Assembly (NCBI RefSeq): GCF_009914755.1
Contig: NC_060938.1
Origin: the human T2T-CHM13v2.0 reference genome, Homo sapiens
DNA: 64,000 nt
Direction: 5' to 3' (one strand)
Of this stretch, positions 331 to 31,848 are shown in pieces. A program made the translations under genes and the position numbers. Below the pieces are notes generated by a model, which saw nothing but the letters and a program-made list of their open reading frames with translations, was not told the DNA's origin and ran no database searches. Every line of letters begins with the position of its first letter. Position 1 is the first letter of the stretch.

Positions 331-1140
331 TGTGTACTGGAGGAGAAGAAAGTCTGTCATCTGGCCCCTTGCTGCCATCTGTCTGCACGTCAGTCTGTTG
401 TCATTTGCACTGTGCATTTGTCTATTTAAAACAATCCTACCCAGATGCCCCCTCCTCAGTGTCACCTTCCACCCTGGCAGGATGCCTTATGGCAATGCCA
501 CTTCTGAGATGGTCGTGGGAGTCAGCACCACTGGCCAGGTATGTGAATTTTCTGCTAACAATGGAAGAGTTTGAAAAACCATATATGAAGTACCATTAAC
601 CCCAAGCATGCAATCTATCCTTAGGAAGACTTCCTGGAAATTATGCTCACCTTTGGGGATGAGGCCATGATTCTGAGGTCAGTGCCATGCCATGGTCTAA
701 TAAAGTTTGCATTCAATGCTGTTTGTTTCTGTATGATCAATATTGTAAAGTCAGTCTCTTTGTCATGGACTCAGCTTTGGAGGGTTCCTGGACACAAGGC
801 CTGTGTAAGGAAAGGATCATTACTGTCAGCCTCGATGCTAATGTGAGATGAGGGAATGTGCCCTGCTCTGATCCAAATGCTGAGTTTCTGTGCACTTGGC
901 CTCTCCACCATCAGGTTCCCTGGCAGTGCTCCTTTAGACATGCACCCACCTTGGCAAAGACATTGAGGTCTGGATGGCTGCAGGGTCCGGGATGGAATGG
1001 TTGAATACAGGGCGTGTGCTTTCTTCTCAACCCTCTTGCAGTCCGTCTGCTAACCGTCAATGTTCACTGTCTCCTAGGGGGACTTCCTGGAGGAGGCCAA
1101 CTTTGGAGAACAGGCATTGACATTGGGTCTGCGCTAGCGT

Positions 1141-1224
1141 GTGGTACTTGAAGATAGGTTATCCGTGTTGCCTTCGCTTTATTTGTGACGAATCATACAC
1201 GGTTGACCTATTTTTCAGTACCAA
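1141..1224 (+). ncRNA. MIR154: pre-miR-154
   Basis: Hairpin with 5p TAGGTTATCCGTGTTGCCTTCG (1155-1176) and 3p AATCATACACGGTTGACCTATT (1191-1212), matching recalled mature sequences; family loop TTCGCTTTATTTGTGACGAAT. Confidence 0.97.
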
Positions 1225-1430
1225 ATCCCGCCTTGGAGGGCTTCCTGGAGCGGAGTCTTACTTCAGGGTGTCAGCTCCTCTCCAGGGTAAGGAAGGGGAC
1301 CATTGACCATAGCCGACCCAGCAGTGTGCCCTGGCCCTAACCCTGTGTGTGCCCCGTCCTTGGGGAGGTTTCTAGAGATGGTGCCACCTTTGGGGAAGAA
1401 GTGGAGCTTTTCCTATCAGAGCTACTCTGT

Positions 1431-1510
1431 GGTACTGGTGGAGAGGTCTTCCATGATGCATTCGATTTATTTTTTGACCAATCCTACATAGTGGACTCTT
1501 TTGAAAGCAT
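1431..1510 (+). pseudogene. Degenerate miR-154-family hairpin (miR-154b-like)
   Basis: GGTACT start, 5' arm AGAGGTCTTCCATGATGCATTCG (1442-1464), loop ATTTATTTTTTGACC, 3' arm AATCCTACATAGTGGACTCTTTT (1480-1502), then the AAATC..CCTT spacer motif; colinear with MIR154. Confidence 0.75.
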
Positions 1511-1958
1511 TAAATCTAGCCTTAAAGCACCCTCGGGTGGTGCCGAGTTTAGGAACTAGAACTGGTGTCTGAATGCCTGAACGCACGGCGAAGCTGACAG
1601 TGTGCACACTCTTCTTGGTGGGTCGTGCACCTGCAGGCGTCCTGCTTGCTTACCATGGCAGTTTCCTCGAAAGAGGCGGCAGTTCCCTCATCGGCTCACT
1701 GCATGTTTGACAAGACACCGTCTTGCTGTCTTCCCTGCTGCCCTCTCTTCATGTATCACAGATGGTGCTCTGCAGAGCTCTCTGCTGTGGCACTTCCCTC
1801 CCTGAATGGCTTCCTGCAAGAGGTGCTAATTGCAAGTAAGGGATGGAGTGCGGCCCGGACCGCAGAGCTTATTTCGTGGGTGGTGTGTTGCCACCTTCCT
1901 GACTCTCAGTATCCCGTCCGTCCTCAGGCCTGCTGCTGGGACGCGCTGGAAGCGAGCA

Positions 1959-2060
1959 CCCAAGTCAGGTACTCGAATGGAGGTTGTCCATGGTGTGTTC
2001 ATTTTATTTATGATGAGTATTACATGGCCAATCTCCTTTCGGTACTCAATTCTTCTTGGG
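1959..2060 (+). ncRNA. MIR496: pre-miR-496
   Basis: Hairpin with mature 3p TGAGTATTACATGGCCAATCTC (2014-2035). Confidence 0.96.
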
Positions 2061-2559
2061 AAACGTCACGAGGGGAAAGCCCAGCCGGCACCTGCGCAGG
2101 GTAAGGAAGTGGATCACCTCCGCATGACAGGTGCTCTCTGTGTGACTTACATCACTTGGCTCATATCCCGGCCATCATTAGGAGGAATTCCCCGAAATGA
2201 TGCTGACGTTTTAGTTGACATGGTGGTCTTCTAGTCGCATCCTTGAAGACTCGTCAGTGAATAAACCACATTTAGTCAACCTTTTTAGGTGTGAAATCAT
2301 CTTGGCTGTGTGGCACACTTTAGGGAAAGGAACTCCTGGCTGAATGGAAGACATCCACATTACGCCCTCAAATACCTTATCTTCTGGGTGACCTCTGGGA
2401 AGCAAGGGGTGAAGGGGGTTTCCTCAGCAGTGAGAATTAATGTTGTTTAAAGACACATTTCCATGGCACGACTCGGTTATTCCTACTGCAAGACGAGAAT
2501 TGTTAATAGCATTTATTACTACCTTATGTTGCCAGCTGTGTGCCCTTGGAAAATCCCTT

Positions 2560-2840
2560 CACCTATCAGCTCTCTGGGCCTCAGTCTCTTCCTCTGTAAA
2601 GCAGGGTTAACAGCGGAGTGGAAACGTGCTCTTTGTGAAGTGTCTAGACAGCGTCTGGCACGTGGCTGTAGGATAAGCATTGTTTCTGAGGATGGTCATT
2701 ATATGAATGTTATGTCATCTGCACTCATTGTCCTCTCGCCACTAGAATGGAAGCTCCCTGAGGGCAGAGTCCTTGTCTGTTTTGCCTGGTGCTGTGTCGC
2801 CAGATGTGCACAGTAGGTGTGATGCTGAATGAATGAATAG
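2560..2840. mobile_element. MIR fragment followed by L2 3' end
   Basis: MIR core (tctctgggcctcagtctcttcctctgtaaa) then L2 terminus (ccactagaatggaagctccctgagggcagag...gctgaatgaatgaat). Confidence 0.6.
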
Positions 2841-3435
2841 GCAGCGTGACCTGTTTTCTTGGTTGAACTCTCTTTGAGGCCTCCTGGAATGGAGTGCATG
2901 GAGTACAGTCACCTGAGCCTGTGCTGTCCCTGTGACGCAGCCCCACCCACCCTCTGAGGATGCTGCGCTGGACGAGGAGTCGCCAGCCTTCAGGTCGGGT
3001 CCTCCCTCAAACCCCTGTAGGCTGGACTGAACACGGTCACATGGTTCATTGGCAGCCCCCTTCTCTGTGTGAAATCCTGCTTCAGAGACTTCCAGAGGAG
3101 ATACCGGCTCTGGAGGTGGACCTTGGTGTTCCAGCCCCTCTAGGGTAGGTGACCAGGGTCTGACTCTAGCTCGGGCTGACCTGTGATGTGTGTGTGCATA
3201 GCCTCGCCCCCACTGCCTGCTCCAGGGCTACAGAAGCTGGTCCATGACCAACCATGTTCTGACCACTGCCTGGGGGGCTTCTCGGAGGTAGAGAGAGAGA
3301 GAGAGCAAGAGGGGAGAGAGCGAGCCAGCAAGCCAGCGAGCCTGCAGCTGGAGTCAGCAGGGAGGTCCCGCAGGCAATGCCGCCTTTGGTGAAGAGGCAT
3401 CTCGGTGTGTTCTTGCCCGTGCTGATGTTTGACCC

Positions 3436-3504
3436 TTGAGCAGAGGTTGCCCTTGGTGAATTCGCTTTATTTATGTTGAATCACACAAAGGCAACTTTTG
3501 TTTG
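3436..3504 (+). ncRNA. MIR377: pre-miR-377
   Basis: 5p AGAGGTTGCCCTTGGTGAATTC (3442-3463), 3p ATCACACAAAGGCAACTTTTGT (3480-3501). Confidence 0.97.
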
Positions 3505-4831
3505 AGTATCAAATCCTGCTTGGGATGGCTTCCGGGACCCAGTGGCAAGCTCAGGGGCATCTACACCCCTCCCGTGAGCAAGAATGGACGGGGTAGACGT
3601 GGGTGGTCTGCCCTCTGCGGTCCTCTGCGGTGGATGAGAACAGATGTCGCTCAGAGAACACAAGCTTCATTCATGATGGGGGCGGGGCTCGCGGCCCGGG
3701 GAGGATGGCGTTGGTGTCGCGTCGGCTTTAGCTCTTACCCTGGACCCTGTCTCTTTACATCACCATTTTGGCTGTGTTGATCCCAAAGACATTTTGACTC
3801 CACCATTTTTTTTTCGGAAGGTATTTGACCTCGCGGATACACAAAGAGCTCACACTTGGCAGGGTCTGTGACGAGTCTGCAGCCCCAGACCCCCATCTAG
3901 CTCACAAGCACTGTGCTTCTTTCTGCACCTTTCCTTGTCTCTATCTTTCTCTTTCTATCCCCCAACCAAACATTGTTCCCAATTTTCTCCTGGGTTATGA
4001 AACAAATAGAGGCTATCAGTATCTCATCCCATTTGTATTAAATAATACTGATAGAAATAATCAACACAAAATAAAACTAAAAACAGCTGAAACGGCACAG
4101 TGCTAAATGTGTTCAGTTGACTACAAATTGGCAGAGGAATCCAATTTTCTTGACAACATTTCAGCTGTGACATTTGACCTGGGGAAATAGAAAGCTGCCG
4201 ACGTGGCAGCCATGGAAGGAAATTCACGGTGGCGGCGGTGATAAACAGTGATATTTGATGTAGACAAGAACACATTGAGGAATCAAATCTTCATGCAGAT
4301 TTTTAAATGGAAAAAAATTGATCCTAATGAAAATGATTTGGGGAAAATAACAAGGGAAATAAAAGAAATGAAAACAGCTCAACAGCGCGGTCAGGAAAGC
4401 TAAACAGGGAATTGGATTAGTATAATGGCATTGGCTCTGAAAAACACGTTTCTATGAATATCAATGTTGGTACAATTCTTGTGAAGATGGTTACATTTGT
4501 GCGTGTTTACAGTGGAGTTGGTGGGGTCAGTAGGAACCTAGGGTCAAAAAATGGGATACAGTCTCCCCCTTTATGCAGTTGATCTTTTCTTGCTGCCCCA
4601 AACCTTCCCGAGAGCTTCCCGGAAAGGTGTGCTGACTTCAGGCGTGACACACTGGTAAGGCGTCCTCCCGGGGATCTGGGTGCATGTTGTCCCCAGAGCA
4701 TTCATACGTAAGTGACAGGCATCACCTGGTCTCCCTCCATCCCCACGGAGGGTTCTGGGTGAGACGCTGACTCCGGAGGGAAGCAGAAGTTCTACGGTCA
4801 GTGGGGTCTGGTCTTTCAGGACAGTTGCTTC

Positions 4832-5265
4832 TGTGAACTCAGAAAATCTGAGACAGCTCTTAGTTAATTTAGAAAGTTTATTTTGACAAGGTTGAGGATA
4901 CACCCGTAACACAGCTTCAGGAAGTACTGTGGTCAAGGCACAGCTTGGCTTTATACATTTTAGGGAGACATGAGACATCATTCAGCACATGTAAGAAGTA
5001 CATTGGTTTTGTCTGCAAAGGTGGGACAACTTGAAGCGAAGGCAGGAAGGAGGGAGCTTCCAGGTCACAGACAGGTGATACACAAATGATTACATTCTTT
5101 CGCGTTTCTCATGAGCCTTTCCAAAGGAGGCAAATCAGATACGCATCTGTCTCAGTGAGCAGAGGGATGACTTTGAATGGAATGAGAGGCAGGTTTATCC
5201 TGAGCAGCTTCCAGCTTGAGTTTTCCTTAGTGATTTTAGGGGCCCGCGATAACTTTCCTTTCACA
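4832..5265 (-). mobile_element. Solo ERV1 LTR, MER4A/MER4A1-like
   Basis: TGTGAA...TTCACA termini; 4-bp target-site duplication CTTC (4828-4831, 5266-5269); reverse complement matches recalled MER4A1 consensus. Confidence 0.85.
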
Positions 5266-5881
5266 CTTCCAAGGCTATTGATGAACACACAGGCATCCAG
5301 GAACATTCTGGGGTTCAGTCCTTCCTCAGACTCTGCTGTTGATACCTTACATGGTTCCATGCTGGCCCCAAGGACGTGCCCTTCGTTGGTGCCGAATGTC
5401 ATTTGGTCATAGAGGCTGAAAGTCATTCTGGAGTTGATGTTTCCAAGGTCAAAAACCTTGCTGGGGCTGTGGAAAGAGCTCGTTGTTTGCTGGCCTGCTT
5501 TGTTGGTGACCAGCATTGCACATGGCTTTCTTTTCAGATCAAACCCTACCTGGAGAATTTCCAGAAGCAACAGCACCCTCAGGAGGCGGCCTGCAGCCGG
5601 AGCCCTCTCCAGGGCAGGTGCCTGAGGGCCGCCCATGGGACAGGCCCGATTGTACCCACGGTGCATGTCATCTGTTCCACTCCTGCTGACTCCGGTGCGT
5701 TCCGGGACCACCTTGGGAGGTGATGCCTGCCCCAGGAAGGAGGCTCTGATGCAGGTCAGTGCCCATGGCTCCTGAAGGGAAGTCGTCTGTGACATCTTTT
5801 CTTTCTTTACAGCAGGCCTCGCATGGCTGGCCTCTTGCTCCACTTGTAGCAAGGCGCAGAGGGCTCTCTGAGCTCATGCCA

Positions 5882-5965
5882 ACGTCAGGGAAAGGATTCT
5901 GCTGTCGGTCCCACTCCAAAGTTCACAGAATGGGTGGTGGGCACAGAATCTGGACTCTGCTTGTG
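5882..5965 (+). ncRNA. MIR541: pre-miR-541
   Basis: 5p AAAGGATTCTGCTGTCGGTCCCACT (5891-5915), 3p TGGTGGGCACAGAATCTGGACT (5935-5956). Confidence 0.96.
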
Positions 5966-6686
5966 GCATCCATCGTCTGGCCCGATGCTTGCTGGCTGCC
6001 CGCTCCAGGAGGCACCTTCTGGGTGTTCTCTGAGTCTGGGGAAGGTTGGGTTCTGAGGTCAGGGCTGCCCTGACCCTTGTGAAGAGAAGACATCTGTGAC
6101 TCACCTGCTTTCTTCTGCTGCATTTATCCCCCCAGTCCCTTATTTTGAATGTCTCACTTGCTTTATGAGGCTAATCAGATGGTCAGCCAGCTGTTGATAA
6201 CTGTGAAGTTACTCTTTGAGGGATCCTGGGGTGATGCCTCTGTGGGCTGGAGATGGTGCTGGTGAGACCGCAGGTCTGGGGTCAGCGTTGTGCCCCGTTG
6301 AGCTCCCGCCAAAGGAATCCTCTGCTGGGAGGGAGGCTCTGTGCTTGTGCAGGGGTCCCTACAGGGTCACCCCCTCTCAGGGTCTGGGAATGAAAAGCGG
6401 GTGCGAGCAGGGTTTCATTTTCATCTTTAGCAAGGTGCCCAAGGAAGGTTGCCGTCTTTTCAGTATAAGATCCTACCTGGGTCTTGCACTCAACTTCTGG
6501 GAAGAGTCTCTAGATTCATTCTGGAAGGGGTTGGAATCGTTGGACTTGGTGATTGGGAACGTCCTTGGAGAGTGTGAGGCTCTGGGCTCTGAATGCCCAG
6601 ACCTTGTGCTGCCCTTGGGGGAGGGTCTTCTGCAAGCACAGCCGCCTGCAAGCATTCACCTTAGTCCGAGCATCTGAGCCTCTCCA

Positions 6687-6765
6687 TGGTACTCGGGGAG
6701 AGGTTACCCGAGCAACTTTGCATCTGGACGACGAATGTTGCTCGGTGAACCCCTTTTCGGTATCA
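6687..6765 (+). ncRNA. MIR409: pre-miR-409
   Basis: 5p AGGTTACCCGAGCAACTTTGCAT (6701-6723), 3p GAATGTTGCTCGGTGAACCCCT (6733-6754). Confidence 0.97.
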
Positions 6766-6833
6766 AATTCCACCAGGGAGGCCGTCTTGGAGGCTGGGGC
6801 ACCTCGGGGAAGGACGCCGGCATCAGCACCATT

Positions 6834-6924
6834 CTGGGGTACGGGGATGGATGGTCGACCAGTTGGAAAGTAATTGTTTCTAATGTACTTCACCTGGTCC
6901 ACTAGCCGTCCGTATCCGCTGCAG
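6834..6924 (+). ncRNA. MIR412: pre-miR-412
   Basis: 5p TGGTCGACCAGTTGGAAAGTAAT (6852-6874), 3p ACTTCACCTGGTCCACTAGCCGT (6887-6909). Confidence 0.96.
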
Positions 6925-6984
6925 CCTGTGGGGCCTGCGGGCCGGGGAGCCGATCGCGCTTCAGCTCAGCGCCTTTCCTGGTAC

Positions 6985-7054
6985 TTGAAGGGAGATCGAC
7001 CGTGTTATATTCGCTTTATTGACTTCGAATAATACATGGTTGATCTTTTCTCAG
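6985..7054 (+). ncRNA. MIR369: pre-miR-369
   Basis: 5p AGATCGACCGTGTTATATTCGC (6993-7014), 3p AATAATACATGGTTGATCTTT (7028-7048). Confidence 0.97.
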
Positions 7055-7298
7055 TATCAAATCTCACCTTGGAGGACCCGTTGGAGATGAAGCCCTTTTG
7101 AGGGTAGGAGCAGGACGGGTGCTTTGGAGTCGCTGCCTCAGTGGGGCCTGGTCACCGAGAGTGGGCCGGGCAGGGGTCTCTTTCCTGTCTCTGTGTCTTC
7201 TCACCTTTGATGTCCCATCCGTCCTCAGGACTGCTTCCCGGGGGCAGCGCTGGCACCACGGGACGCGGCAGCCACGTTCTTGAGCCGATGGCACTCTG

Positions 7299-7378
7299 GG
7301 TACCTGAGAAGAGGTTGTCTGTGATGAGTTCGCTTTTATTAATGACGAATATAACACAGATGGCCTGTTTTCAGTACC
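7299..7378 (+). ncRNA. MIR410: pre-miR-410
   Basis: 3p AATATAACACAGATGGCCTGT (7348-7368); family loop TTCGCTTTTATTAATGACG. Confidence 0.97.
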
Positions 7379-7819
7379 GCTACCGCCCGGTGGTGTGCGG
7401 GCGCCACGCCTGAGGCGGGACTTTCCAGGGTACGTGAATGCATGGGCTGGTGTGACATTTGTCATCCTTTCCCCTGACCCCCGCCATTGAATCATTTTGG
7501 GAGAGCTTTCGGGGGGCCATGTGGACTTTGGGGAAGATGCTAGGGTTGTGCACTGTGGTGGGGGGCGGTCATGAAGCTGATGAGCAATGGTGACGGGGCT
7601 CAGTCTGTTTTTCATGGCCAGTGTCATCGAGGCAGAGGACACGGGGGAGCTAGTCCCGCTGGAAGGCATCCTGCTGGAAGGCCACCCACCCCTCGCCAGG
7701 ATGTTGGGGGCGGCTGCATGCATTCCCTGCACCTGGGCTGCCTTCTGCTCATCTCAGTGCTGTGAGACCCTGGGTGGGAGCTGGTGCCTTGGGTGGCCGT
7801 GAGCGTGTGCTGCTCCTTG

Positions 7820-7900
7820 TGGTGCCTGAGGAGAGGTGGCCTGTGTTGCATTCACAGAAATCATGACACACAAGACACGAGCGGCCTCTCTTCAGTATCA
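7820..7900 (+). ncRNA. Candidate or degenerate miR-323-like hairpin between MIR410 and MIR656
   Basis: Well-paired lower stem CTGAGGAGAGGT/GCCTCTCTTCAG; 3' arm CACAAGACACGAGCGGCCTCT (7869-7889) is 16/21 identical to recalled miR-323a-3p; followed by GATCCCACCT spacer motif. Expression unknown. Confidence 0.6.
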
Positions 7901-8110
7901 GATCCCACCTGCATGATTCCTGCACCTGCTGATGTCGGGGAGGTCCGGTTGCGCGCCCTGTGGGCCCCCAGAGGCATGGCTGGTGGCCGAGCACGCGCTT
8001 GACTTCCACCTGCAGCCCTGTGCTGGCCTCCATCCTGGAGGCGGGTGGGTGGCAGGGCCCTTCCCTGTGGAAGAAGCCTCCTCCCTGGAGTCAGTGCTGC
8101 TCAGTGGTAC

Positions 8111-8188
8111 CTGAAATAGGTTGCCTGTGAGGTGTTCACTTTCTATATGATGAATATTATACAGTCAACCTCTTTCCGATATCGAATC
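8111..8188 (+). ncRNA. MIR656: pre-miR-656 (last annotated miRNA of the cluster)
   Basis: 3p AATATTATACAGTCAACCTCT (8153-8173). Confidence 0.96.
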
Positions 8189-9471
8189 CCACCTTGGATG
8201 CCTTCCTCTTTGCTGTCAACTCCAGGCAGCAGCTGGCTCTGCGCTGGTTGACCCTGTGGACTTTGTGTAGGACCTGTGTCACTTGGCCTGTTAATTTTCC
8301 AGCTCCACTCTGTTCTGGGGGGCTTTGGAAGTGTGACGGAATGGCATCCCCAATTCCAGTGTCAGCGGGAGCACCCGCCATGCCCTTGCTTCCGGTTGGC
8401 ACATCCCCCAGGCTGGGCTGGCTCTCAGCTACCCGATGCTTATGTCATATTTGCACCCCTGGCCTGCCCAGACTACAGGAAGATGACCAGAGGCCTGTTT
8501 GCAGCTGACCTGGAGACTTAGTGACTCCAGAACATGCTGCCCATGCCCAGGGTCCAGGGCTGAAGGCAAGGAGCACCTCAGGAGTGACCCCAAAGAATGA
8601 GCTAAGGCTGTCCTTTATCACTCATTGTTGATCAGTGAGCTCCTGGGCTCGGGAGATCTTCCTGAGCTGGGCTCCTGTCATCCCCTAGTTGAGACGTCGC
8701 TGCCTTGGAAGTCACAGCCTGTGCCTGCCCTCCCCCTTGTCCTCCTCCTCGGGACCGCTCCTCTCCATGCCTAGCATGGGAGTGGGGATCCCTGGCACCA
8801 TCCCTCTGGGCTGCCTGCTCCCACTCTCCCTCAGCACCCCTCTTCCCCAGCCCCTGGGCCACAGCCCTGCTGGAGAGGCCGCCCCACAGGCTAGGTCCCT
8901 CCAGCCTGTGGCACTTGGGTCTCCCTCCAGTGCCCCTCCCTCTGCCAGGGAGAGCATTTCCAAGTGCAGAGTCCAGCTGTTTAACTCCGCTGCCCAGGGC
9001 ACCTCTGCAGGCCCCTTCCCTTGGGCTTGGTACCAAAATGATCCGAGGACCCCCCAGGCCCTCAGAGTGGCAGCCCCCCTCTTCTTTTGGAGCCACAGCC
9101 TATCCCCCACGTGTTTTCATCCTTCATTCTGGCCTTGCACATGCCCCTCCTTCCGGAGCTGGGTCCTGGGCCGCCCTGCTCTGCCCTCGGCTGCCTCCTG
9201 TCCAGGCTCTGGCCCTTCCTTCCTTAAAGGCCCACATCCTTTGCATTTTCCTTTCCCAGGGGTTCACAATTCCCAAGGGGATGGAATGGCTCTTGTTCAG
9301 CAAGGTCATCCCTGATAACCCTATAAAAGCAGCTCCCCTTGCCTCTTCCCTATCACGTTCTACCAGTTGCCCCGTTACTGTTTTCTTCCTAGCTTACAGT
9401 TCTCTGAAATTGCCTAATGTTAATGTCTACCTTCTTTGTGCCCTAGACTGTGAGATTTCTCATTGGCAGAA

Positions 9472-9473
<2 letters not shown>

Positions 9474-9538
<65 letters not shown>
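9474..9538. repeat. (TC)n microsatellite
   Basis: About 32 perfect TC units. Confidence 0.98.
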
Positions 9539-9541
<3 letters not shown>

Positions 9542-11296
9542 CCCTGCTGTGTTCAGTAGCAGAACAGTGAGTGTTTGTTGATTGACTAATGGAGTCCCCA
9601 AAGGCAGGGACCGGATCAGATGAATTCCCAGGCAGGTGCTGGGCACAAAGCAGGCAGTCAATAAGATGTGGTGATGGAGTACATGAATATGTTAATTGAT
9701 TTTTAGAAATTCTTCCCATTTGTTCAAAGCTGTTTGGTTTTCTAGCTTTTTCTGCCCTTCCAGGATGAGGCTGAGATTAGCTGCAGGAGGCACGAGTCAG
9801 TTGGGTCTGGGTTCTCTCTTCCACTTGTCGGGGGGTGGGGGCACCAAAGCCCCAGAGGAAGTGACAGGCCCTGTGTTCCCCTGCAGATGCCGACTGATCG
9901 CGCCCCCGCCCCTCCAGCAAACGCCCCAGCGCTGAGAGCCAAATGCTCTGGGGAACTCCATCTGCAACGGGCTGGAGCGTGGTGTTAGGGCTCATATTTT
10001 ATGCATGGGGCTGACTAAATGGGAACATTTGGAGATGAAAATTGCTGTTAATGCATCTACACATCTTTGGAATATATTAAATGTGTGTGTGAGGGGAAGA
10101 GTGACATTAGCCTTATTTAATAGCTTCAATATAACCATCCCCGCACACCACGGCGTTAACAGGCACGGCCCCCCCCCCGAGTCTCCCAGGCCACCACTCA
10201 GGAAGAGTGCTGGGTGCATCACGCGCCACTTGAGAATTAGGGGGTGAGTCCGGCGTCGGCCCGGCATGCAGCAGCGTGCATGTTCCCCGCCGATTTCTAA
10301 CCCAAACACAGTGACCCTGTGCCACTTGATGCAGAATTTCATTAAAAGCAAAAATGATTGATTTATCTATTGTTTGCGGAGAAGAAAAAATAAACAAAGG
10401 GCCTTTCTCATCAGATAAGCCAAATAAGAACGTGTGCCCCACAGGTGGCCAGGATGAAAGTCTCCATGGACCCTTCAACCAGAGGCTCTGTGACTTGTCC
10501 CGTCTTCAGTGCGGTGTGTAAACCCTGCCGCCGGTCCAAGTTCACGAGGTGTGCTCCCTTCTCCAGTGCAAGGGCCCGGTTTATCCCCACTATGTCTCCT
10601 GGACGTGGTTGGGAAATTGAACAACCTGGACCTCCGTTCCCATTTCCTTGTTGTTTCAGCGGGAGATAAGAGGAGAAGTAATAGCTGTCGTGTTGGGGCG
10701 CTTGCCTTGGTCCTGGGCCCCATCAGCTGCTGTGAGGAGACAGTTTCTTTTCCATAGTTGAGGAAATGGAGCGCAGAGAGGTTGAGTGAGTCAACCAAGG
10801 TCACCCAGCTGGAGGTGGGGCAGGGTCTGGCTCCAGGCTGTGTGCTCTCACCCACCCTGCTTGCACGGGCTTTAGGAATAGCCCCTGTGTCCTGGAAGAC
10901 AGATCGCTCACCGAATGGGCCTCTTTTCTTGGTATCATATGATGAGGTAGGCTCACTTTCCCCCAGACTTAGCTTGCCAGAATATTCATGGTTTTTTCTC
11001 TGTACTCACCTGTCATCTCTCCAACTTGGTGCCATCACCCATGAAGTGGGATGCTTTGGTGCGTGTCTGGCCTGGGGAGAGGGCTGCTTGCTTTGTCAGA
11101 AGACTCAAAGCATGATGGGCATCCAAATACCAAAGACCTATGTTGACCTGTGTTTTTCACTCCGCTTGATGGCAGTTGAGGGCTATATTCACTGCCTCAG
11201 TTGCATGGAGTGAACAAGACCTAGTGAAGGTGGTGGGTGCGCTGAGACCATCTGGTTGATCTCTCCTGGGTGGGACCAGGTGCTCCCCTCACCACC

Positions 11297-14200
11297 CCCA
11301 CCCTTGTCTGTGTACCACCACTCTGCACAGACACGTTGGCTGGTGCAGTCCTGGAGACCCACGGAGCTCACGGTCGTCAGGGGTCCTCAAGGATTCAGAG
11401 AACCCCCAAATGTCAGGGCTGCTCCCTTCTTGTCCTGCCTCTCTGCTCACACCCTTGGACAGGTAAGAAAACTGAGGTCCACAGAGGGCAGGGTGCATTG
11501 CTGTGGCTTTTGTTCTGAGCACTGTCTCCCCAGCTTTGGGGTTGAGACTCTGGGGTCAAGACCCACCTCTGATGAACGAGCGGCTTCCTTCTTTGTAAAA
11601 ATTGAGGCGACCCAGACCAAGAAGGGCTGCAAAATCACCAAGCCAGGACCTCAATACCCAAGGGGCTGGGGTTTCGGCCACCCTGTGGCAGAGCTTTTAG
11701 AAGCCAGGGCCCTTGGCTCGGCAGTGCTGGCTCATAGTAGGTGCTTAGTTCATGCCTGTCTCCTTGGATGAAATCTGACCATAGACACCAGTGCAAAGCA
11801 GGTGTTCAACACAGGAGGGTGTACTGAACCCGATCTCTCTATCACCAGGAGGAAGCACACGGGAGGCACTCAGAGAACGTTTGTGGAATGAATAAATAAA
11901 AGCATATTTTGAGGGAATAAAGAAGCAGAAAAACAAAGAAGAATCTGGGGAAGATGGGCATAAATCTCCACCAAGTGCTGCCAAGGCTTCCCAGGCGAGG
12001 CTGCTGAAAAGACCCTGTGGAGGTAGAGGGACAATTTGTCATGGATGGGAATGGGCTTGAGGGCCGGGAAGCAGGGCATGATGGGGCCTCATTCATCATT
12101 TTCCCGTTATCCCAGCAGCGTGCAGGGGAGCAGGTACAGCACCTGCCTGTGCAGCTGCACTGCCTGCCCGAAGGCCCTAGGCCCTGGGCCAAGTGAGTGA
12201 CCAGAGGGGGACTGGGAATGGAAAGGACCTCAAGGAAGGACAAGCTGAGCTCTGGGAGGCCACCTCCTCCAGGAAGCCTTCCCTGATTCATCCTTCACAG
12301 GCAGTCTCAATTTGCAGTCAGATATCCACTGCTCTGATTCTTAGATCAGCAAGTATCTCCCTACCCAGACTGCAGGCTCTGCTGGGGCCGCGGCTGTTTC
12401 TGACTTGTGCACAATGGCATCCCTGTACCTAGCACAGGACTGAGTCCAGAGAAAGTGCTCAGTGATGCTTGTTGGCCTTGTCTCTCCTCTGTGGGCAGCA
12501 CAGGGCACCCGGCGGGTCCTGAGGGTGTGGACATCCCACGGCAGAGCCTGCGGTTGATCCCGACCATGAACCAAGGCCTGGGGCGGGGGTGGCCACATCA
12601 GGCCACTTCTGCCAGGAGAGATGTGGCTGTGAGCTGGGGGTCTGGCCTGTCCCCGGAGGCATTCCTTGGGTTTGCATCCATCAGAAGATCCACTGGTTGC
12701 CTCTATTTGGGCCTGGAGCAGGGATGGGATTTTTCCAAGGTACATGGGGTCTAGGGGAGACCCAGGCCCATTATTAGGGTCGGTCTTGAGAAGGCAGAGA
12801 TCAGGCCACCACTTTATTTGGTGTAGCTCCTCGCTCCATTGGTGTGTGCTGAGTGAATGAATGCATCAGGGACTCCTGCTTCCTGCCCAGAGCCCCCTCC
12901 GCACCCCACACAGCCTTGCTCCAAGGAGAAGGGGTCAGAGCCAACTGGACAGTGCTACAGCATGGGGAGCCTCGACCAGGCTCGGCCCTCGACGATGGGA
13001 TAGGCAGACAGCCCCCTGTGCAAGGCAGCTAGCTTGCAGGGTCCCGAGAGGCCAAAGGCCCTGGTCTTTCCTGGGGCAAGAGGCTGCTGAGAAGGTGCAC
13101 AGAGCCTGGGTGCAGGAAACCATCCAGAATGCTGCTTCCCGCCATCTGTGAGATCTTCGTTTTCTCTAACACTCAAAAATAGATGTTTCTGTTATGCTCT
13201 CTCGTTGGCAGGGGAGCGGCAGGACCTGCCAAGGCCTGGGGGAGCCCGCCAGCCTGCTGAGTTCTACTGTACAAACAGTTGGGGAGGGGGCGCTGTCTCT
13301 GTTAACTTGAAATTCCCCGATCAGTAAACATGCCAATTTAAAGTGTAATTAACTCAGGCCGGAAAAAATTCAGATTTGGACTGCTTTTCACAGTTGAGGT
13401 TGTTTTTCTTTTATTTATTTATCTCTTTCCGGGTGTGGTGGTATCTGTGGCTGGTTTTAGCCAGGAAAAATAGAAGGGGGACCGGGTGGGGAGGGGGCTG
13501 GTTGGGAGAGGAAAGGCTGGAAGGAAAGGAAGAGAAACGGGCGGGTGGCCTGACACCCAGCAGCCAGGTGTCTATAGGTTTTCTGTCCTGGGAGGGGGCT
13601 GTCAGGGTGATGCCCGCCTGCAGAGAGGGGGTCATTCTGCGAGGTTGGGCTGCAGACCCCTGTGCCAGCGGGCCTGGTGATTCGGAAATGATGGGGCACT
13701 GTGGAGAGACCCCAGGAAAACACCCAGTGCTGCTTTTGACATTCTCTCTCCATCTCCCCTTTCAGCGGCTGCTCTGCCTGGGATAAACACATTTCAAGAG
13801 TCTCAGTCCCCGCTTTGCCACCATCTCCTCCTCTGATCTCCTTTCCTGCTTCAAAAGACTCCAGAATCTTCTCGGTTCTCAGAGAAGGCTGAATCCACCT
13901 ATGACCTAGTGGGAGCACCCTGTGCCGAAACTGTTTACCTTCTGGTCCCCGGAGCCATGGGTCACGACCTGGGCCTCATGTAGGCCCGCTCCTCAGCAGA
14001 CCCCAATCTGCGGCTTCTCCCACCTCACTGGGGAAGAAGGAGAGCCCTGGGGATGTGGAGAAGCCACCCCCCACCCCGCCACATCCCCCACATCTTACAG
14101 AATCTCGATTGAATCCCCGGGGGCACATCCCTCAGCAGGACAGCAACAGTCTTTGCCGCAGCCTGGGGAGGGCTGTGCTGGGGATGAGCGCCGAGTGGCC

Positions 14201-14340
14201 GTGGACTAAGTGAAGGAAATGACCATGCTCTTCTCCCAGCTGGATGGCGAGGCCGGGCAGGAACCGCGGAATTCCTGCTCTTCGTTTTCAAACACTTTGC
14301 TGTCAAGCTATTTGAATAATAAATACACATTATAAAAATG
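11297..14340 (+). ncRNA. MEG9: Probable MEG9 (MIRG) lncRNA terminal exons
   Basis: Position downstream of MIR656 is recalled from annotation. Sequence support: donor CAG|GTAAGA (11462/3), acceptor ...ttatcccag| (12115), donor AA|GTGAGT (12192/3), acceptor ...ctcccctttcag| (13765), poly(A) signal at 14318. Exon structure and 5' boundary are approximate. Confidence 0.55.
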
Positions 14341-14365
14341 TAAATATGTTTGTGTGTCTGTATGT
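14318..14365 (+). terminator. Polyadenylation signal with GU-rich downstream element
   Basis: AATAAA at 14318-14323, then TGTTTGTGTGTCTGTATGTT about 25 nt downstream. Confidence 0.7.
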
Positions 14366-17300
14366 TCGGAGATGATGTTTGTTAAGCGGGAGGTTTAACA
14401 ACGGAGGCCATCTGCCTTCAGCAGGGATTCGCACAGAATGTCACTGGCCTTCGCCCAACAAGCACTTTGCAGGGAGCAACCTCCTGAAGTCGGGGCTCAC
14501 TCCTGGGTCCCCCTCCACTGCATGCGAGCCCCCCGTTCCAAGGCAGGAGCCAGGGTCACGAAAATGCATGCTTCTTCATCAATCCGAGGTCTCAAACGGC
14601 TCCCCCAGCCCCACTGCCTGCCCGTTCCAGGCCTGGGGCTGGCAGCCTGGGCCCCACGAGGGGGCAGAGGCCAGAGCCCGGCGGCAGAGCCCGTGCCCAC
14701 GCCTCGCTGCTGCCAGCCTCCGCTTGGTCACGACACAGCCAGGCTGACTCAGACACAGCCCCAAGCGGGAGCCTCATAAATGACATCATTACCTATGAAA
14801 CCTGCCGTGTAGTGCGCTAGCAGGGAAGGACACACTCTGGCCGCCCGGTGACTCACACTGTTTTCCCCAGAGCCTTCCTGCTCCACCGCCTGGGTCTGAG
14901 CTGGCTGGGCAGGGGGAGGGGGCACTCAGCTTGGCCTCACTCCCCCGCTCTGCTGCAAATGCAAAAGCAATCGGCCAGGCAGCCACCATCCTGCTGAGGG
15001 CTGTGTGTGGGGGTGGCGGGGAGGAGGGGGGGCACCATCTCTCCGGCCTCCCTCTGCAGCCCCAGTGGCGCTCCAGAGGGACTGTCAGTTGCCTATGACA
15101 GGGGAGGAAACTGAGGCCTAAAGAGGCCCAATGCCTGGCCTCACAGATCCCACAGGGGAGGGTGGCTTCGGCTCATGCTGGGAACCCCCAGGGAGACCCT
15201 TCGGCGAACCCAGCCGCTGGGCAAAGCTGCAAAACCTCTGGCTGTTCCTGCTGGGCCTGAGACTCCAGCTTCTCCTGAGCTCCTTTGGTGCAGCCAACTC
15301 CTCCTGCTGAAAAACACTTCTACTCTTGAAAGTGGTGGCCTTGCCAACCCAAGATGTCCCCACCAGGTGGGGGGCACTGTAGGGGAATGCTAGTTTTTTT
15401 TTCTTCAATTAAAAAAAAGTAAAACAAATAAAATGGGACCTGTTGGGTATGGCCTTCAGAGTCGGAGGACTTGGGTTAAGATCCAGCCTTTGTCATTTAC
15501 TGGTACTGTGGTTTTCTTGTATCTGGCCTCCACCTCCTAGGCAGGATGAGAGTTAAATGCCTGTTAGGTTCACGTTAAACTGGGGCTCCCCCTCAGTGAT
15601 CCATGGTTGGGGAGGACCCCCACCAATCCTGAGGTCGCTGTGCACCTGCAGCCCAGACCTCACCCTGGCCCGGGGACCTGGCCTGATGGTCCAGCCCCCC
15701 ACACACTGCTGGCTCTGGGGCTGTGCCCTCCTGATACGCCCCCAGCACCTGATGGCATCCCCCAAACAGAACAAGAACCGCAAACAGCAACAGCCCGTTT
15801 TTGCTCTTAGGAAGCTCAGAGCAGCATCTATGCCAAAATCGTTCACACTCTGGTCCCCGGAGCTACAGGTCACAAGCTGGTCCTCACCCAGACCCGCTCC
15901 TCAGCAGCCTCCATCCCTGACCCTGGTTTCCTGGGGACTCTGCTCCGCTGACTTCTGAGCTGTGGGAGCTGTAAGGGAGAGGAGTGGGCCACAGACTTGA
16001 TGGGAGGATACAGAGGTAGAAATTCAAGTCAGGGCCACAGAGTTGTGTTCAAAACTGGGAACATGACCTGGGCTTGGCACAGAGCCTGGCGCCTGGGATG
16101 AGTGGAGAGGGAGAATTGGAGGGCACTGGGATTGGTAATCCTCAATGCATCTTAGGCAAATGAGCTCGGGGTCACAGGGCAGGATACATGGGACCAAGGA
16201 ACACTGGTCAGCCATCAGTGCTGTGACCCAGGCGGGCTTGAGGTACAGTGGGGGGTCCCAGGACTGGCAGGCCCCACAGAGTAGCCTTCCCTGAGTTTGT
16301 CTGAGCCAAAAATCCCAGCAAAGGGCTTTGTGGCCCGTTGCCACTTTCACCCTGGTAGCTCCACCCCATCTCCCCCTTTGCCATGAACTCACAGCTCTCC
16401 TGCGAGGCCACAACCCATGCCAAGACTTTCAATGGGTTAAGGAATGTGCACATCTCTAAATGACCACACGTGCCCTGTCATGTACACGTGCACACACACT
16501 GACATGCATTTGAGGAATGGGGGCATTCTCTGTGCCTGAGCAGAGGCCAGGGACCCTGGATGGGTAGGAAAGAGTCGAGGGAGTTGGGCAGCAGAAGCAC
16601 GTGCTGGTAGGGATGGCAAGGAGCCCTGGACGTTGGTGGTGGGTGGGTGCTGTATCAGGACCTGGGCTAGAAGAAAGGCTTGGGATCAGAGTGGACCCAG
16701 TTCTCTTTGAAGCATAGCTTTCTTCTGGTTCTTTGTAAGACCAAAGCAACTGACACCTGTGCAGCTGTCCCTGGGTGACTTTGTCTGATATCACACAGCC
16801 ACAGGACTCTCTCTCTGTCCCAGTCACTACTGAAGCTGACTCTGCGCTCTCTCCCCGGTGATGAGGCCTCTCTTCTCACAGATGGGTGATTTCTCACTCT
16901 CATCCAGTTCCCCTCCTGGCCACACTCATTTTCTTATTGAGGCGCAGGGGGTACCACCCCTGGTTTGGGGACTGTTCGGCTGGCCACACCCCCTCTTTGG
17001 TGGGTAGCAGAGGAAGTGACACTTCTGACTAAAAAGACTGGGGTCACACTGCCCAAGAATTGAGTGGAGTTTCTTGCACAGAAAGAGTTTGTTTTCCAAA
17101 AGACAAAGAAGTTTCTAAGCCTCAGGAAGGGATGCTGAAAAGTCAGTGGACTGAAGCTGGCCAGGTTTCACCCCCAACTTGGGCACTAACCCTGAGGATG
17201 GGTGTGGGGGCAAAGGTGGCATCAATGCTGCCAGAGCCTCATGCTCCAACACACCGGAGCCACTAGCCCAGCTCGCCCATGCCTGTGACCTTGGGGCTGT

Positions 17301-18849
17301 CACTTGAACCCTCTGGGCTTCCGTGTCCTCATAATAGGATCTGGGTTCTTGAGAGAGAGACACCAAAGCATGCCCGGAACAGAGCCCAGCAGCCCACTCC
17401 TCCTCCGTCACCCCAGGCCTCTCTGCCAACCTTCTCTGCCTCTCCCATTTCAGCCCCATACCTGGTTTAGACCCTAGGGGGATGCTGGGTGCACAGAACA
17501 GACCACCTGCGCTTGGGCCATGGCTGCTGGGTACTGGCCTCTTCCCTAATGAGGGAGGAAGGAGTGAGGAGAGCCCTCAGAGGGGCCATGGGCAGTCCCG
17601 GGGTGCAGAGGCTGAGTCCCGAGGAAGTGGGGGCTCCTGCCGCCTCTCCGCAGGGTCCTGGCTGTGTCAGGTGGGGCTGTTGTTTCTCTCGTCTGCTGTC
17701 ATCTTCCCTTTGCCATTTCCCTCGCGGGGCTGACATTTTCCTGGCAGGTCCAGGAGGAAGGAGGGTGACAGCTGCACAGACAGCCCCGGTGAGGGGGCAA
17801 GCCCGGCCTGTACTAAGGCTGTCTCTTCCCCCCGCTTGGGGAAAAGAACGGGTGCAGACCACCCCTTCCATGGAGGGGTAACTTCATGGGTTTCCCCCGA
17901 AAACCCCAAAACTTGGAACTGCTGCGGGGTTTCCACCTACCCTGCCTGTGTCCGGCACAGAGCAGCCTCCAACGGTCGCCTAAAAGGCGGGCAGCAGTCC
18001 CGTTTGTCTCCAATATCCTCCCTCTCCAGGATTCTCAGAGCACTTGTGATGGCAGCAAACTGAGTCTCAGCGAGGGGTTCACTGGCCCTGCACGGCTCCC
18101 GGCACTTTGTAACCTATAACGAGACGAGGACCGTGAGGATGTATTCATATTTCACGCATTCAGCTTCTATTTAACTATGTCTCCGAGCACGCGTGCTCTG
18201 AACTATGACCCCACAGAGAGACCACCACCTCCCCGCAACTGCCTGGCAGGGCGCACCAGGCTGCAGAGACAAAGGAATGGGACCTTTAGAAGCCTGGACC
18301 AGTTACTGGCACTGGGCGCCCACCTCTGGGTTGGGGAAAATGCCGTGTGCCCAGTGCAGCCCCAAGATGCTTCCTGGCCAAGAGGACCCCGTTCGTCAAG
18401 GCCTTTACACCCCTTATCTCCCCCAATGCCCTTTCCTGGCAGCCAGCCAGTGGTTCCACCTTTCCCCTTTTCAGCCAAAAAAAAGTAAACGCAGGCCAGA
18501 GAAGCCACCTGCCTGCGGTCCCACAGCCCGAGGTGGAGGCGGAGGGGGTGCTGCCACTCCAAATCTGGGCGCCCCCACCCCAGTGCCCCCCTCCCGAGAA
18601 TAGAGCCCAGAGCCAGAAGAAATCCGCCCTTGGGGCCAGGCTGGGTGGACATGGAGAGGGGGTAGAGGAATGCCGGCGGGAGGTACTGAAGGCTGCGGGG
18701 GTGAGGGGGGTTGAGGGGTCCCCAGGGGTCCCTGCCCTGCAGTTCTTTGGGGTTCACAGATTGGAAAAGCTGGTGCCCTTCTGAGGGTGGGTGGGGGTGG
18801 CGGCAGAGGCAGAATAAAACCCCCTCCCCTAGAGCCGGGGTGGCTCAGC

Positions 18850-19450
18850 GGAATCATCGAGAATGAGACCGCTGGTTGCTAATGGGCTTGGGGAAAATGG
18901 GATGCAATTTCCCCGGTGTTTTTCAGGCCCAGAGCTATTGAATAAATGAAGTGCGCGCCGGCGGAGTCAGTAACTCACTGCGCGGCTCCCGGCAGGCGGG
19001 GGCGGAGTGGGGGCCGCAGAACCGGACGTGCCTGGCGAGGTTCAGAGGCGCTAGCGGTGTGGTGGGTGGGCAGCGCCGGGATGGCTGGAGGGAGGGGCTA
19101 CGGGGGGAGGCGCTGCCGATCCCACACTGATCTGGCGGGGAGGAGGGAGGGGCGGATGGGGTTTGCTGGAGAACTTGACCTTGCTTCGCTCCCCTCAAGG
19201 GGCAGCTGCTGGGAGACCAAGTGTCACCGGCTGGCAATCAGGGCCCCAAGCCTGGAGACTTCTGGACAAGCGGAGGCAAGCCGACCATGACGGCTTGGGT
19301 GCAGGGAGCAGGTGTCTGAGCCTTTGACGTAGACTTCCCGAGCCCCCACTGCACGGTGCAGGGGAGGGGCGGCGCAGGGAGGAGAGCGGGTTTCCGAGAG
19401 CCGCACATTTACCAGACATCACAGCCACCCCTCCGCTGAGCTGGGGGCTG
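18850..19450. promoter_or_regulatory. CpG-rich promoter-like island
   Basis: Dense CpG (GCGCGCCGGCGG, CGCGG), GC boxes GGGGCGG near 19000, 19150 and 19366, and a TGACGT CRE-like site at 19325-19330. Confidence 0.6.
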
Positions 19451-24340: not shown

Positions 24341-24477
24341 TCAGCCCACTGAGAGGATGAGAGACCTGGGGGAGTGGCAAGGACCTGGGGGTCCCTCCTC
24401 AGCACAGCCCAGGGTAGCTGGAGGTGGAGATGTGAGACTGTGTTTGGAGCACAGGTTAGAGGACCTGAAATCCCAGG

Positions 24478-26835: not shown

Positions 26836-27537
<702 letters not shown>

Positions 27538-31800: not shown

Positions 31801-31848
31801 GTACATTTTTAAAAAGTGATCCCAAATGCCTCGGAAACAATGAGATAC

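What the first reader, a model, noticed from the sequence alone, without database searches (positions are those of the whole stretch)
1180..7900. The repeat unit looks like a splice cassette: 3' splice site in the hairpin base, mini-exon, then a 5' splice site
Seen: the 3' basal stem reads as a pyrimidine tract plus CAG in MIR154 (CCTATTTTTCAG| 1218), MIR369 (TCTTTTCTCAG| 7054), MIR410 (CCTGTTTTCAG| 7374) and in relics (5537, 6463, 7895). The loop TGAC lies about 30 nt upstream, a typical branch-point distance. A donor-like AGG|GTA follows at a similar spacing: GTAAGG 1287 (68-nt exon), GTAGGA 7104 (49 nt), GTACGT 7430 (55 nt). MIR496 keeps the donor (GTAAGG 2101) but its CAG has become CGG; MIR409 also has CGG. 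Established: miR-412 in Mirg is reported to overlap a 3' splice site, with splicing competing with Microprocessor. Inference: this may be the ancestral design of the whole family. The spacer motif would be a mini-exon, and splicing versus Drosha cropping would act as a per-hairpin switch that tunes individual miRNAs from one polycistronic transcript.
Basis: partly seen in the sequence, partly recalled or inferred. Interest (0 to 1): 0.8.

Follow-up and report, generated by a model that had tools for sequence, protein, structure and literature searches.

The report
Splice-like motifs flanking tandem microRNA hairpins
The splice-site look-alikes next to these human chromosome 14 microRNA hairpins are real, but they are mostly the two strands of each hairpin's conserved base in a roughly 150-base tandem repeat, and only a few seem to have become true splice sites of the host RNA.

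Summary
The pattern extends over the whole miR-379/656 cluster: 22 of 32 mir-154-type hairpins have AG at the same basal-stem position.

The mini-exon reading is poorly supported. The AG lies inside the basal stem: its G is paired in 31 of 32 copies and its predicted unpaired probability is 0.02. It scores only around the 84th percentile as an acceptor. A strong in-stem acceptor plus a strong donor occurs in 1 of 32 units.

The cluster is a tandem array of about 100 modules, each a hairpin plus a 60-nt spacer. I found 101 spacer copies, and their consensus carries no donor.

Strong acceptors sit about 60-70 nt upstream of hairpins instead. Paired with downstream donors they bracket the hairpin in 10 of 32 units, against 3-5% expected. 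Published mouse data fit this: miR-485 and miR-410 are exonic, and mouse transcripts use a donor 52 nt after mir-410, matching human 7430.

My verdict is structural by-product plus local recruitment as host-gene splice sites. A family-wide splice-versus-Drosha switch remains untested. No human junction data could be examined.

The parts
1142..1223 (+). MIR154 hairpin. The in-stem pyrimidine run plus CAG ends at 1218.
   Evidence: Rfam mir-154, 98.2 bits. Acceptor score 0.6, 91st percentile.
1215..1268 (+). Spacer-element copy after MIR154. It holds a CNNC motif starting 16-17 nt after the 3p end.
   Evidence: nhmmer E = 6.4e-12. CNNC offsets.
1287..1292 (+). Donor-like GTAAGG, 68 nt after the in-stem AG.
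   Evidence: Donor score 4.9, 99th percentile.
1057..1077 (+). Acceptor-like pyrimidine run plus TAG, about 65 nt upstream of MIR154, inside a spacer copy at 1068-1113.
   Evidence: Acceptor score 2.8, 96th percentile. Spacer copy.
1430..1512 (+). Decayed mir-154-type hairpin.
   Evidence: Rfam 45 bits, below the 52-bit gathering score.
1907..1927 (+). Acceptor-like CCTCAG, 40 nt upstream of MIR496.
   Evidence: Acceptor score 2.6, 95th percentile.
1967..2047 (+). MIR496 hairpin. The in-stem position reads CGG.
   Evidence: Rfam 77.3 bits. Sequence.
2101..2106 (+). Donor-like GTAAGG after MIR496.
   Evidence: Donor score 4.9, 99th percentile.
3430..3556 (+). MIR377 hairpin (in-stem GAG) plus its spacer copy at 3504-3556.
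   Evidence: Rfam 69 bits. Spacer E = 7.4e-11.
5538..5585 (+). Spacer copy behind a decayed hairpin.
   Evidence: nhmmer E = 0.001. Acceptor score 3.7, 97th percentile.
6460..6506 (+). Spacer copy.
   Evidence: nhmmer E = 0.0027. Acceptor at the 88th percentile.
6687..6814 (+). MIR409 hairpin (in-stem CGG) plus its spacer copy at 6757-6814.
   Evidence: Rfam 61 bits. Spacer E = 5.7e-07.
6837..6924 (+). MIR412 hairpin. CTGCAG at 6919-6924 is the human counterpart of the 3' splice site reported for mouse miR-412, and it lies in the unpaired tail beyond the stem.
   Evidence: Rfam mir-412, 105.5 bits, last 7 model positions unpaired. Acceptor score -0.2, 88th percentile. Mouse site described in reviews.
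6979..7108 (+). MIR369 hairpin (CAG ends at 7054), its spacer copy at 7051-7108, and the donor-like GTAGGA at 7104.
   Evidence: Rfam 81.3 bits. Acceptor 2.9 (96th percentile) and donor 2.0 (94th percentile). Spacer.
7208..7228 (+). Acceptor-like CCTCAG, 70 nt upstream of MIR410.
   Evidence: Acceptor score 2.7, 96th percentile.
7298..7379 (+). MIR410 hairpin. The in-stem CAG ends at 7374.
   Evidence: Rfam 68.2 bits. Acceptor score -1.3, 84th percentile.
7430..7435 (+). Donor-like GTACGT. The candidate exon would end 51 nt after the annotated MIR410 hairpin, and the donor used in mouse has the same geometry.
   Evidence: Donor score 3.0, 96th percentile. Mouse exons end at chr12:109743847 and mmu-mir-410 is at 109743715-109743795.
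7820..7943 (+). Decayed hairpin (CAG ends at 7895) plus its spacer copy at 7892-7943.
   Evidence: Rfam 42.2 bits. Spacer E = 2e-05.
8105..8229 (+). MIR656 hairpin (the in-stem position reads GA) plus its spacer copy at 8179-8229.
   Evidence: Rfam 64.4 bits. Spacer.

Best explanation
The region is the distal end of a tandem array of about 100 modules, each roughly 150 nt long and made of one hairpin plus one 60-nt spacer.

The acceptor look-alike (pyrimidine run plus CAG) is the 3' strand of the conserved basal stem. Its G is the first base of a basal GUAC palindrome and its A pairs with a U on the 5' strand. It is followed, at the distance where the CNNC processing motif is described (recalled from the literature), by a CNNC inside the conserved AAATCC-type flank. 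This part is shown.

The donor look-alikes are not a conserved column of the module. They are copy-specific GTs, either in the G-rich end of the spacer (consensus CAGGGAAG) or further downstream.

Because the module supplies pyrimidine-rich and G-rich segments, single changes easily create splice sites, and the host non-coding RNA (Mirg/MEG9) has recruited some of them. This step is inferred. The best-supported arrangement is an acceptor 60-70 nt upstream of a hairpin and a donor 46-81 nt downstream of it, so that the hairpin lies inside the exon. Drosha cropping would then cut the exon, not compete with an in-stem splice site.
For: - Module structure. Iterated nhmmer finds 101 plus-strand spacer copies between -36588 and 8229, typically 130-165 nt apart where copies are adjacent. 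It finds 1 hit on the minus strand and 0 in the other 48 kb of the window. There are 44 hairpins at or above an Rfam gathering score and 64 hairpin-profile hits.
- Stem constraint. Rfam's mir-154 structure pairs both bases of the AG. The G is paired in 31 of 32 copies (27 C:G, 2 U:A, 2 U.G). The A is paired in 26 of 32. The predicted unpaired probability of the AG has a median of 0.02.
- CNNC starts 15-17 nt after the annotated 3p end in 8 of 9 hairpins of the window.
- No ancestral donor. GT occurs in spacer columns 52-58 in 8 of 68 copies that cover those columns.
- Strong acceptors (95th percentile or above) cluster 137-160 nt before the in-stem AG in 14 units. A hairpin-spanning acceptor/donor pair occurs in 10 of 32 units, against 0.03-0.05 for random anchors. 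The mini-exon pair occurs in 1 of 32.
- The upstream acceptors are predicted to be more accessible, with a median unpaired probability of 0.21.
- Mouse. The miR-485 precursor is exonic and the Mirg cDNA starts where it is cropped (PMC2632752, passages). miR-410 is exonic and miR-541 intronic (review PMC8465124, passages). C2C12 and CT26 assemblies in the paper's mouse GTF (the study used DROSHA inhibition) splice from 109743847 to 109748125 (PMC4561498 supplementary mouse GTF). mmu-mir-410 coordinates come from PMC4331712. MIR485 and MIR410 are both among the 10 units with a spanning pair.
Against: - No human RNA evidence was examined. RefSeq lists no exon in 1-11317 (table given with the finding), so even the hairpin-containing exons are unconfirmed in human.
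- The human GTF of PMC4561498 holds no exon start or end beginning 10149-10153. That range rests on hg19 coordinates for the cluster that I recalled, and the file was cut when stored.
- The two mouse assemblies start inside or 7 nt before the mir-410 hairpin, so they say nothing about the acceptor.
- The weight matrices are crude and recalled. The human counterpart of the reported mouse miR-412 acceptor scores only at the 88th percentile, so a modest score does not exclude use of the in-stem AGs.
- The -3 C is kept as a UxC mismatch in 17 of 32 copies, and the A is kept opposite a C in 4 copies. Pairing alone does not predict either.
- Copies are related. The ten spanning-pair units include two pairs of near-identical neighbouring copies (-18941/-18176 and -15644/-14423), so the binomial p-values overstate significance.
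Confidence: 0.6

Rival explanations
1. The in-stem AG is a working 3' splice site, the spacer is a mini-exon closed by the downstream GT, and splicing competes with Drosha at each hairpin. This would be the ancestral design of the family.
For: - AG occurs in 22 of 32 copies, and 17 of the 22 read YAG.
- A branch-point-like yTnAy lies upstream in 29 of 32 copies, against 0.27 at random.
- Donors are enriched downstream.
- The -3 C is conserved as a mismatch.
- One unit (MIR485, at -3201) has both a strong in-stem acceptor (4.3) and a strong donor (5.9) 48 nt apart.
- Precedent: mouse miR-412.
Against: - The AG is paired, with unpaired probability 0.02.
- It is lost in 10 of 32 copies; the G partner still pairs in 9 of those 10 and the A partner in 6, both in 5.
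- Median acceptor percentile is 84, and only 5 of 32 units reach the 95th percentile.
- The spacer consensus has no donor.
- A strong acceptor/donor pair occurs in 1 of 32 units.
- Mouse miR-410 and miR-485 are exonic.
- No RefSeq exon border lies here.
Confidence: 0.12
2. Pure by-product. None of the splice-like motifs in 1180-7900 is used in human. They only reflect hairpin base composition and shared ancestry, and the primary transcript is simply cropped.
For: - No RefSeq exon lies in 1-11317 (table given with the finding).
- No exon was found in the human assemblies of PMC4561498, as far as the stored file reaches.
- Both motifs lie in or next to the conserved stem.
Against: - A donor at the position matching 7430 is used in mouse.
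- Hairpin-spanning acceptor/donor pairs are 6-10 times more frequent than at random anchors.
- Mouse Mirg/Meg9 cDNAs have many exons across this stretch.
Confidence: 0.25
3. Mirtron-like reading. Each hairpin is itself a short intron running from the 5' basal G|GTAC to the 3' basal CAG, and the spacers are the exons.
For: GT sits at the 5' base in 27 of 32 copies and AG at the 3' base in 22 of 32. The distance of about 75 nt is near the minimum intron size.
Against: - The 5' basal GT scores at a median of -1.7 (76th percentile), with a maximum of 0.2.
- The splice points would lie 13 nt and 5-6 nt outside the annotated mature ends, so splicing would not produce the pre-microRNA (table given with the finding).
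Confidence: 0.03

Closest known systems
Splice-site-overlapping microRNAs, in particular mouse miR-412 in Mirg (Melamed et al. 2013). That paper is not held here. I know it only through passages of reviews PMC8465124 and PMC13686912 and of PMC6097652.
   Same: It is the same locus and host transcript. An AG preceded by pyrimidines lies at the 3' foot of a hairpin, and splicing and cropping are mutually exclusive at that site.
   Different: Judged from the human counterpart, that AG lies in the unpaired tail about 7 nt beyond the stem. No exon border is annotated at them, and published human lists of such microRNAs contain none from this cluster (PMC3794580 Table 1).
C19MC host gene: a tandem unit of one repeated exon plus one intronic hairpin (Bortolin-Cavaille et al. 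2009, PMC2691840, passages read).
   Same: It is a large tandem microRNA array inside a non-coding Pol II transcript, with a repeat unit that carries splice sites.
   Different: In C19MC the repeated exon was shown by cDNA and RT-PCR ladders and the hairpins are intronic. Here nothing is shown for human, and the best candidates put the hairpin inside the exon. That paper states that flanks at C14MC may no longer be detectable as repeats, whereas 101 spacer copies are detectable here.
Canonical Microprocessor substrates with basal and flanking primary-sequence motifs (basal UG, downstream CNNC). Motif positions are recalled from the literature, not taken from a call.
   Same: UG forms the first two bases of the stem in 24 of 32 copies, and CNNC starts 15-17 nt after the 3p end in 8 of 9. 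This accounts for the first third of the conserved spacer.
   Different: It does not account for the rest of the spacer (CCTTGGAGG, CTTCCTGGAG and the CAGGGAAG block), nor for the survival of spacers where the hairpin has decayed.
Mirtrons
   Same: A hairpin bounded by a GT and a pyrimidine run plus AG.
   Different: The hairpin ends do not coincide with the mature ends, and the 5' site is weak.

Membership tests
mir-154 precursor family (Rfam RF00641) | Match to the covariance model at or above the 52-bit gathering score | tested here: met
   Seven window hairpins score 61-98.2 bits (MIR154, 496, 377, 409, 369, 410, 656). Two relics score 45 and 42.2 bits, below the cut-off. The whole chromosome region gives 32 plus-strand matches at E of 0.001 or better.
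Splice-site-overlapping microRNA | A splice site supported by annotation or transcripts lies within the pri-microRNA hairpin | tested here: not met
   The RefSeq table given with the finding has no exon border in 1-11317. The human GTF of PMC4561498 has none in the range searched; that file was cut when stored, and the range rests on recalled hg19 coordinates. RNA-seq junctions could not be examined.
Splice-site-overlapping microRNA | Consensus AG (or GT) dinucleotide with adequate context inside the hairpin | tested here: inconclusive
   AG is present in 22 of 32 copies, at a median 84th percentile, with 5 at or above the 95th. The human counterpart of the reported mouse miR-412 site itself scores at the 88th percentile.
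Splice-site-overlapping microRNA | Inverse relation between splicing at the site and mature microRNA output | not testable with these tools
   This needs expression and junction data or minigenes.
Tandem host-gene unit of the C19MC type (repeated exon plus hairpin) | The repeat unit extends beyond the hairpin | tested here: met
   101 plus-strand spacer copies, 1 minus-strand hit, and 0 in the rest of the window.
Tandem host-gene unit of the C19MC type (repeated exon plus hairpin) | Repeated exons joined in cDNA, with hairpins in the introns | not testable with these tools
   Only indirect mouse evidence is available: one donor used after mir-410, and the miR-485 and miR-410 hairpins reported as exonic.
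Mirtron | Hairpin ends coincide with the splice sites | tested here: not met
   The AG lies 5-6 nt beyond the 3p end and the GT 11-12 nt before the 5p start (table given with the finding). The 5' site scores at a median of -1.7.

The most novel reading that the evidence does not exclude
The whole miR-379/656 array is built from one ~150-nt module whose stem foot and spacer double as splice signals. Exon definition around or at individual hairpins then competes with Microprocessor, so that alternative splicing of the host RNA sets the output of many individual microRNAs from one imprinted transcript, not just that of miR-412. The retention of about 100 spacers, including those next to dead hairpins, would reflect this splicing role.
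Probability: 0.12. Interest if true: 0.7.

Novelty: new member of a known kind. Interest (0 to 1): 0.35.

Why it matters
Mature microRNAs from this imprinted cluster differ widely in level although they share one primary transcript, and how they are tuned individually is an open question. If splice signals built into the repeat module took part, splice-switching oligonucleotides could adjust single cluster members.

The evidence here points the other way for the in-stem AG. It does give concrete, testable candidate junctions, namely hairpin-containing exons in 10 units. It also gives a description of the array as about 100 hairpin-plus-spacer modules. I did not find that description in the papers I could search. 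Seitz 2004 and Melamed 2013 were not held, Glazov 2008 was not looked for, and any of the three may contain it.

Tried and rejected
- Melamed 2013 and Seitz 2004 are not held, so the mouse Mirg exon map relative to each hairpin was not seen.
- In the supplementary files of PMC4561498, the human GTF had no exon coordinate beginning 10149-10153. The hg19 range was recalled and the files were cut when stored. The BodyMap GTF, which would include brain, could not be read.
- The mouse GTF held only one transcript model in the distal cluster, seen in two cell lines.
- I considered whether the donors at 1287, 2101 and 7430 are the 5' base (GGTAC) of the next, decayed hairpin. The spacing (132-145 nt from the previous hairpin start) and local similarity by eye fit this. 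The hairpin profile found no copy there at E of 0.05 or better, so the idea is left as unproven.
- I considered whether the upstream acceptors are strictly homologous to the miR-412 site. MAFFT aligns them in one column, but ungapped counting puts the miR-412 AG about 5 nt earlier. I therefore say only that they fall in the same segment of the spacer.
- The mirtron reading was rejected.
- One search failed because a search term was too long and was re-sent. The script stopped on an indexing bug, which was fixed.


Full report
**What is there**

The window is the distal part of the human chr14 miR-379/656 cluster.
- The pyrimidine run plus CAG ends at 1218, 7054 and 7374, and at 5537, 6463 and 7895 in the relics.
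- GT-starting hexamers begin at 1287, 2101, 7104 and 7430, giving spacings of 68, 49 and 55 nt.
- MIR496 and MIR409 read CGG at the same position.

Rfam finds nine mir-154-type matches in 1-16000. Seven are above the gathering score, and two are relics at 1430-1512 and 7820-7900. It also finds mir-412 and mir-541.

**Extension to the whole cluster**

The window's own genome is held. A search with the mir-154 model gave 32 plus-strand matches over about 44 kb, and I fetched the 44 kb upstream of the window.
- The AG sits at one model position in 22 of 32 copies (14 CAG, 3 TAG, 4 GAG, 1 AAG). The other ten read GG (5), CG (2), AA (2) or GA (1).
- I scored sites with weight matrices built from splice-site base frequencies that I recalled. 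They are not MaxEntScan.
- As a control, the 11 RefSeq splice sites of MEG9, LOC105370670 and LINC02285 in the window fall at the 88th-99.8th percentile of background.
- The 22 in-stem AGs have a median at the 84th percentile, and 5 reach the 95th.
- The best donor 25-115 nt downstream reaches 2 bits in 16 of 32 units (random anchors 0.20-0.22) and 4 bits in 7 of 32 (random 0.07-0.10).

**The AG belongs to the stem**

In Rfam's mir-154 consensus structure both bases of the AG are paired with positions 7 and 6 of the 5' strand, and the base before it is unpaired.
- Across the 32 copies the G is paired in 31 (27 C:G, 2 U.G, and 2 U:A where both sides changed).
- The A is paired in 26 (20 U:A, 4 U.G, 2 C:G).
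- Folding each unit in a context from 200 nt upstream to 60 nt downstream gives a median unpaired probability of 0.02 for the AG and 0.19 for its pyrimidine run.
- CNNC starts 15-17 nt after the annotated 3p end in 8 of 9 window hairpins. That matches where the CNNC processing motif is described (recalled) and explains the conserved AAATCC-type start of the flank.
- The loop TGAC is part of a conserved AU-rich loop. For that reason yTnAy matches are present in 29 of 32 copies, against 0.27 in random windows.

The -3 position is mostly C opposite U, a mismatch that pairing does not explain (17 of 32). In four copies the A is kept opposite a C.

**The repeat module**

Aligning the flanks shows a conserved spacer after the hairpin. 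Three rounds of nhmmer found 101 plus-strand copies from -36588 to 8229. There was 1 hit on the minus strand and none in window 16001-64000 on either strand. Where copies are adjacent they lie typically 130-165 nt apart, so the basic module is a hairpin plus a spacer of about 60 nt. I counted 44 hairpins at or above an Rfam gathering score and 64 hairpin-profile hits, so many spacers outlive their hairpin.

The spacer consensus ends in CAGGGAAG, which is not a donor. A GT occurs in those columns in 8 of 68 copies that cover them. MAFFT aligns the donors after MIR485, MIR496, MIR369 and MIR410 to this block. Those after MIR154 and several upstream hairpins lie 20-30 nt further on. A donor is thus not part of the consensus module. 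The GT-bearing copies in this block sit in the distal part of the array that corresponds to mouse Mirg.

**Where the strong splice signals are**

A profile of all sites at or above the 95th percentile around the 32 hairpins shows acceptors clustering 137-160 nt before the in-stem AG in 14 units. That is 60-70 nt upstream of the hairpin. Donors lie 46-81 nt after the AG.

The upstream alignment shows that these acceptors lie in the CCTTGGAGG segment of the preceding spacer, behind a decayed 379/411/412-type 3' arm. MAFFT places the CTGCAG of MIR412 in the same column, though ungapped counting puts it about 5 nt earlier. An AG in this spacer segment occurs in 4 of 29 copies that follow an intact hairpin and in 22 of 57 others (Fisher p = 0.025).

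A strong upstream acceptor together with a strong downstream donor brackets the hairpin in 10 of 32 units: -18941, -18176, -15644, -14423, -12706, -6171, -3201, 1142, 1967 and 7298. Random anchors give 0.03-0.05 (binomial p = 2e-6 to 1e-8, inflated by relatedness). A strong in-stem acceptor plus a strong donor occurs in 1 of 32 units, at MIR485. The upstream acceptors are also predicted to be more open, with a median unpaired probability of 0.21.

**Literature and transcript evidence**

- I could not read Melamed 2013 or Seitz 2004.
- PMC6097652 calls mmu-miR-412 unconserved.
- In the mouse GTF supplied with PMC4561498, a study that used DROSHA inhibition to assemble primary transcripts, C2C12 and CT26 models have exons chr12:109743748 (or 109743708)-109743847, 109748125-109748293 and 109749095-109749280 (or 109749285).
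- mmu-mir-410 is at 109743715-109743795 (table in PMC4331712). The exon therefore contains the hairpin and ends 52 nt after it. In human, an exon ending at 7429 would end 51 nt after MIR410 (7378).
- The human GTF of the same paper has no exon coordinate in the range I searched. That range rests on recalled hg19 coordinates, and the files were cut when stored.
- RefSeq lists no exon in 1-11317 (table given with the finding).
- PMC2691840 describes the repeated-exon host gene of C19MC and says that C14MC flanks may no longer be detectable as repeats.
- The human list of splice-site-overlapping microRNAs in PMC3794580 (Table 1) holds none from this cluster.
- Full-text searches for a description of this module or cassette found none.

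**Verdict**

The motifs are real. The acceptor look-alike is the paired 3' strand of the stem foot, and the donor look-alikes are copy-specific.

The specific mini-exon, and a family-wide splice-versus-Drosha switch at the in-stem AG, are not supported. The evidence against is stem pairing, loss with compensation, modest scores, 1 of 32 strong pairs, and exonic hairpins in mouse. They are not excluded either: the human counterpart of the site reported in mouse scores no better (88th percentile), and no human junction data could be examined.

The better-supported reading is that the module supplied raw material for host-gene splice sites, most often placing the hairpin inside a candidate exon. 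This is a modest refinement of known biology for this locus.

Noticed in passing
window -36588..8229 (chr14:95257412-95302229), plus strand: There are 101 copies of a ~60-nt spacer element but only 64 detectable hairpin copies, so spacers remain recognisable next to hairpins that have decayed beyond detection. Either the spacer decays more slowly or it has a role of its own.
   Followed up: partly
spacer copies, e.g. window 607-664, and -32462..-32401 (L031): The centre of the spacer (CTTCCTGGAG, reading TTCCTGGAA in some copies) is nearly palindromic. From memory, it resembles a TTCnnnGAA-type STAT site at the DNA level. Copies in neighbouring spacers could also pair with each other in RNA. 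Neither idea was tested.
   Followed up: no
L033:7402-7465 (window -6598..-6535); L032:5450-5521; L032:5215-5301: Three further hairpin matches: mir-379 family at 64.2 bits (above its gathering score of 56), mir-368 family at 96.4 bits, and a mir-654-like match at 62.1 bits (just under 63.5). I had no annotation for that stretch, so I cannot say whether they are named genes.
   Followed up: no
window 11318-11331: RefSeq MEG9 exon 1 starts at 11318, 13 nt before a pyrimidine-rich CACAG acceptor-like site ending at 11330 (91st percentile). The annotated 'first exon' may be an internal exon reached from donors inside the microRNA array, as in the mouse models.
   Followed up: partly
L032:2020-2436 and 7074-7352 (chr14:95272020-95277352): Matches to Metazoa_SRP and mir-1268, which are typical of Alu elements, lie inside the cluster, although the region has been described as Alu-poor (PMC2691840).
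   Followed up: no
window 3283-3300: A short (GA)n run lies just upstream of MIR377, in a G/A-rich stretch.
   Followed up: no
minus strand of most hairpins, e.g. window 6979-7059: The antisense strand matches Rfam mir-3578, at 87.8 bits for MIR369 antisense (above its gathering score of 78). This reflects the near-symmetry of these hairpins.
   Followed up: no
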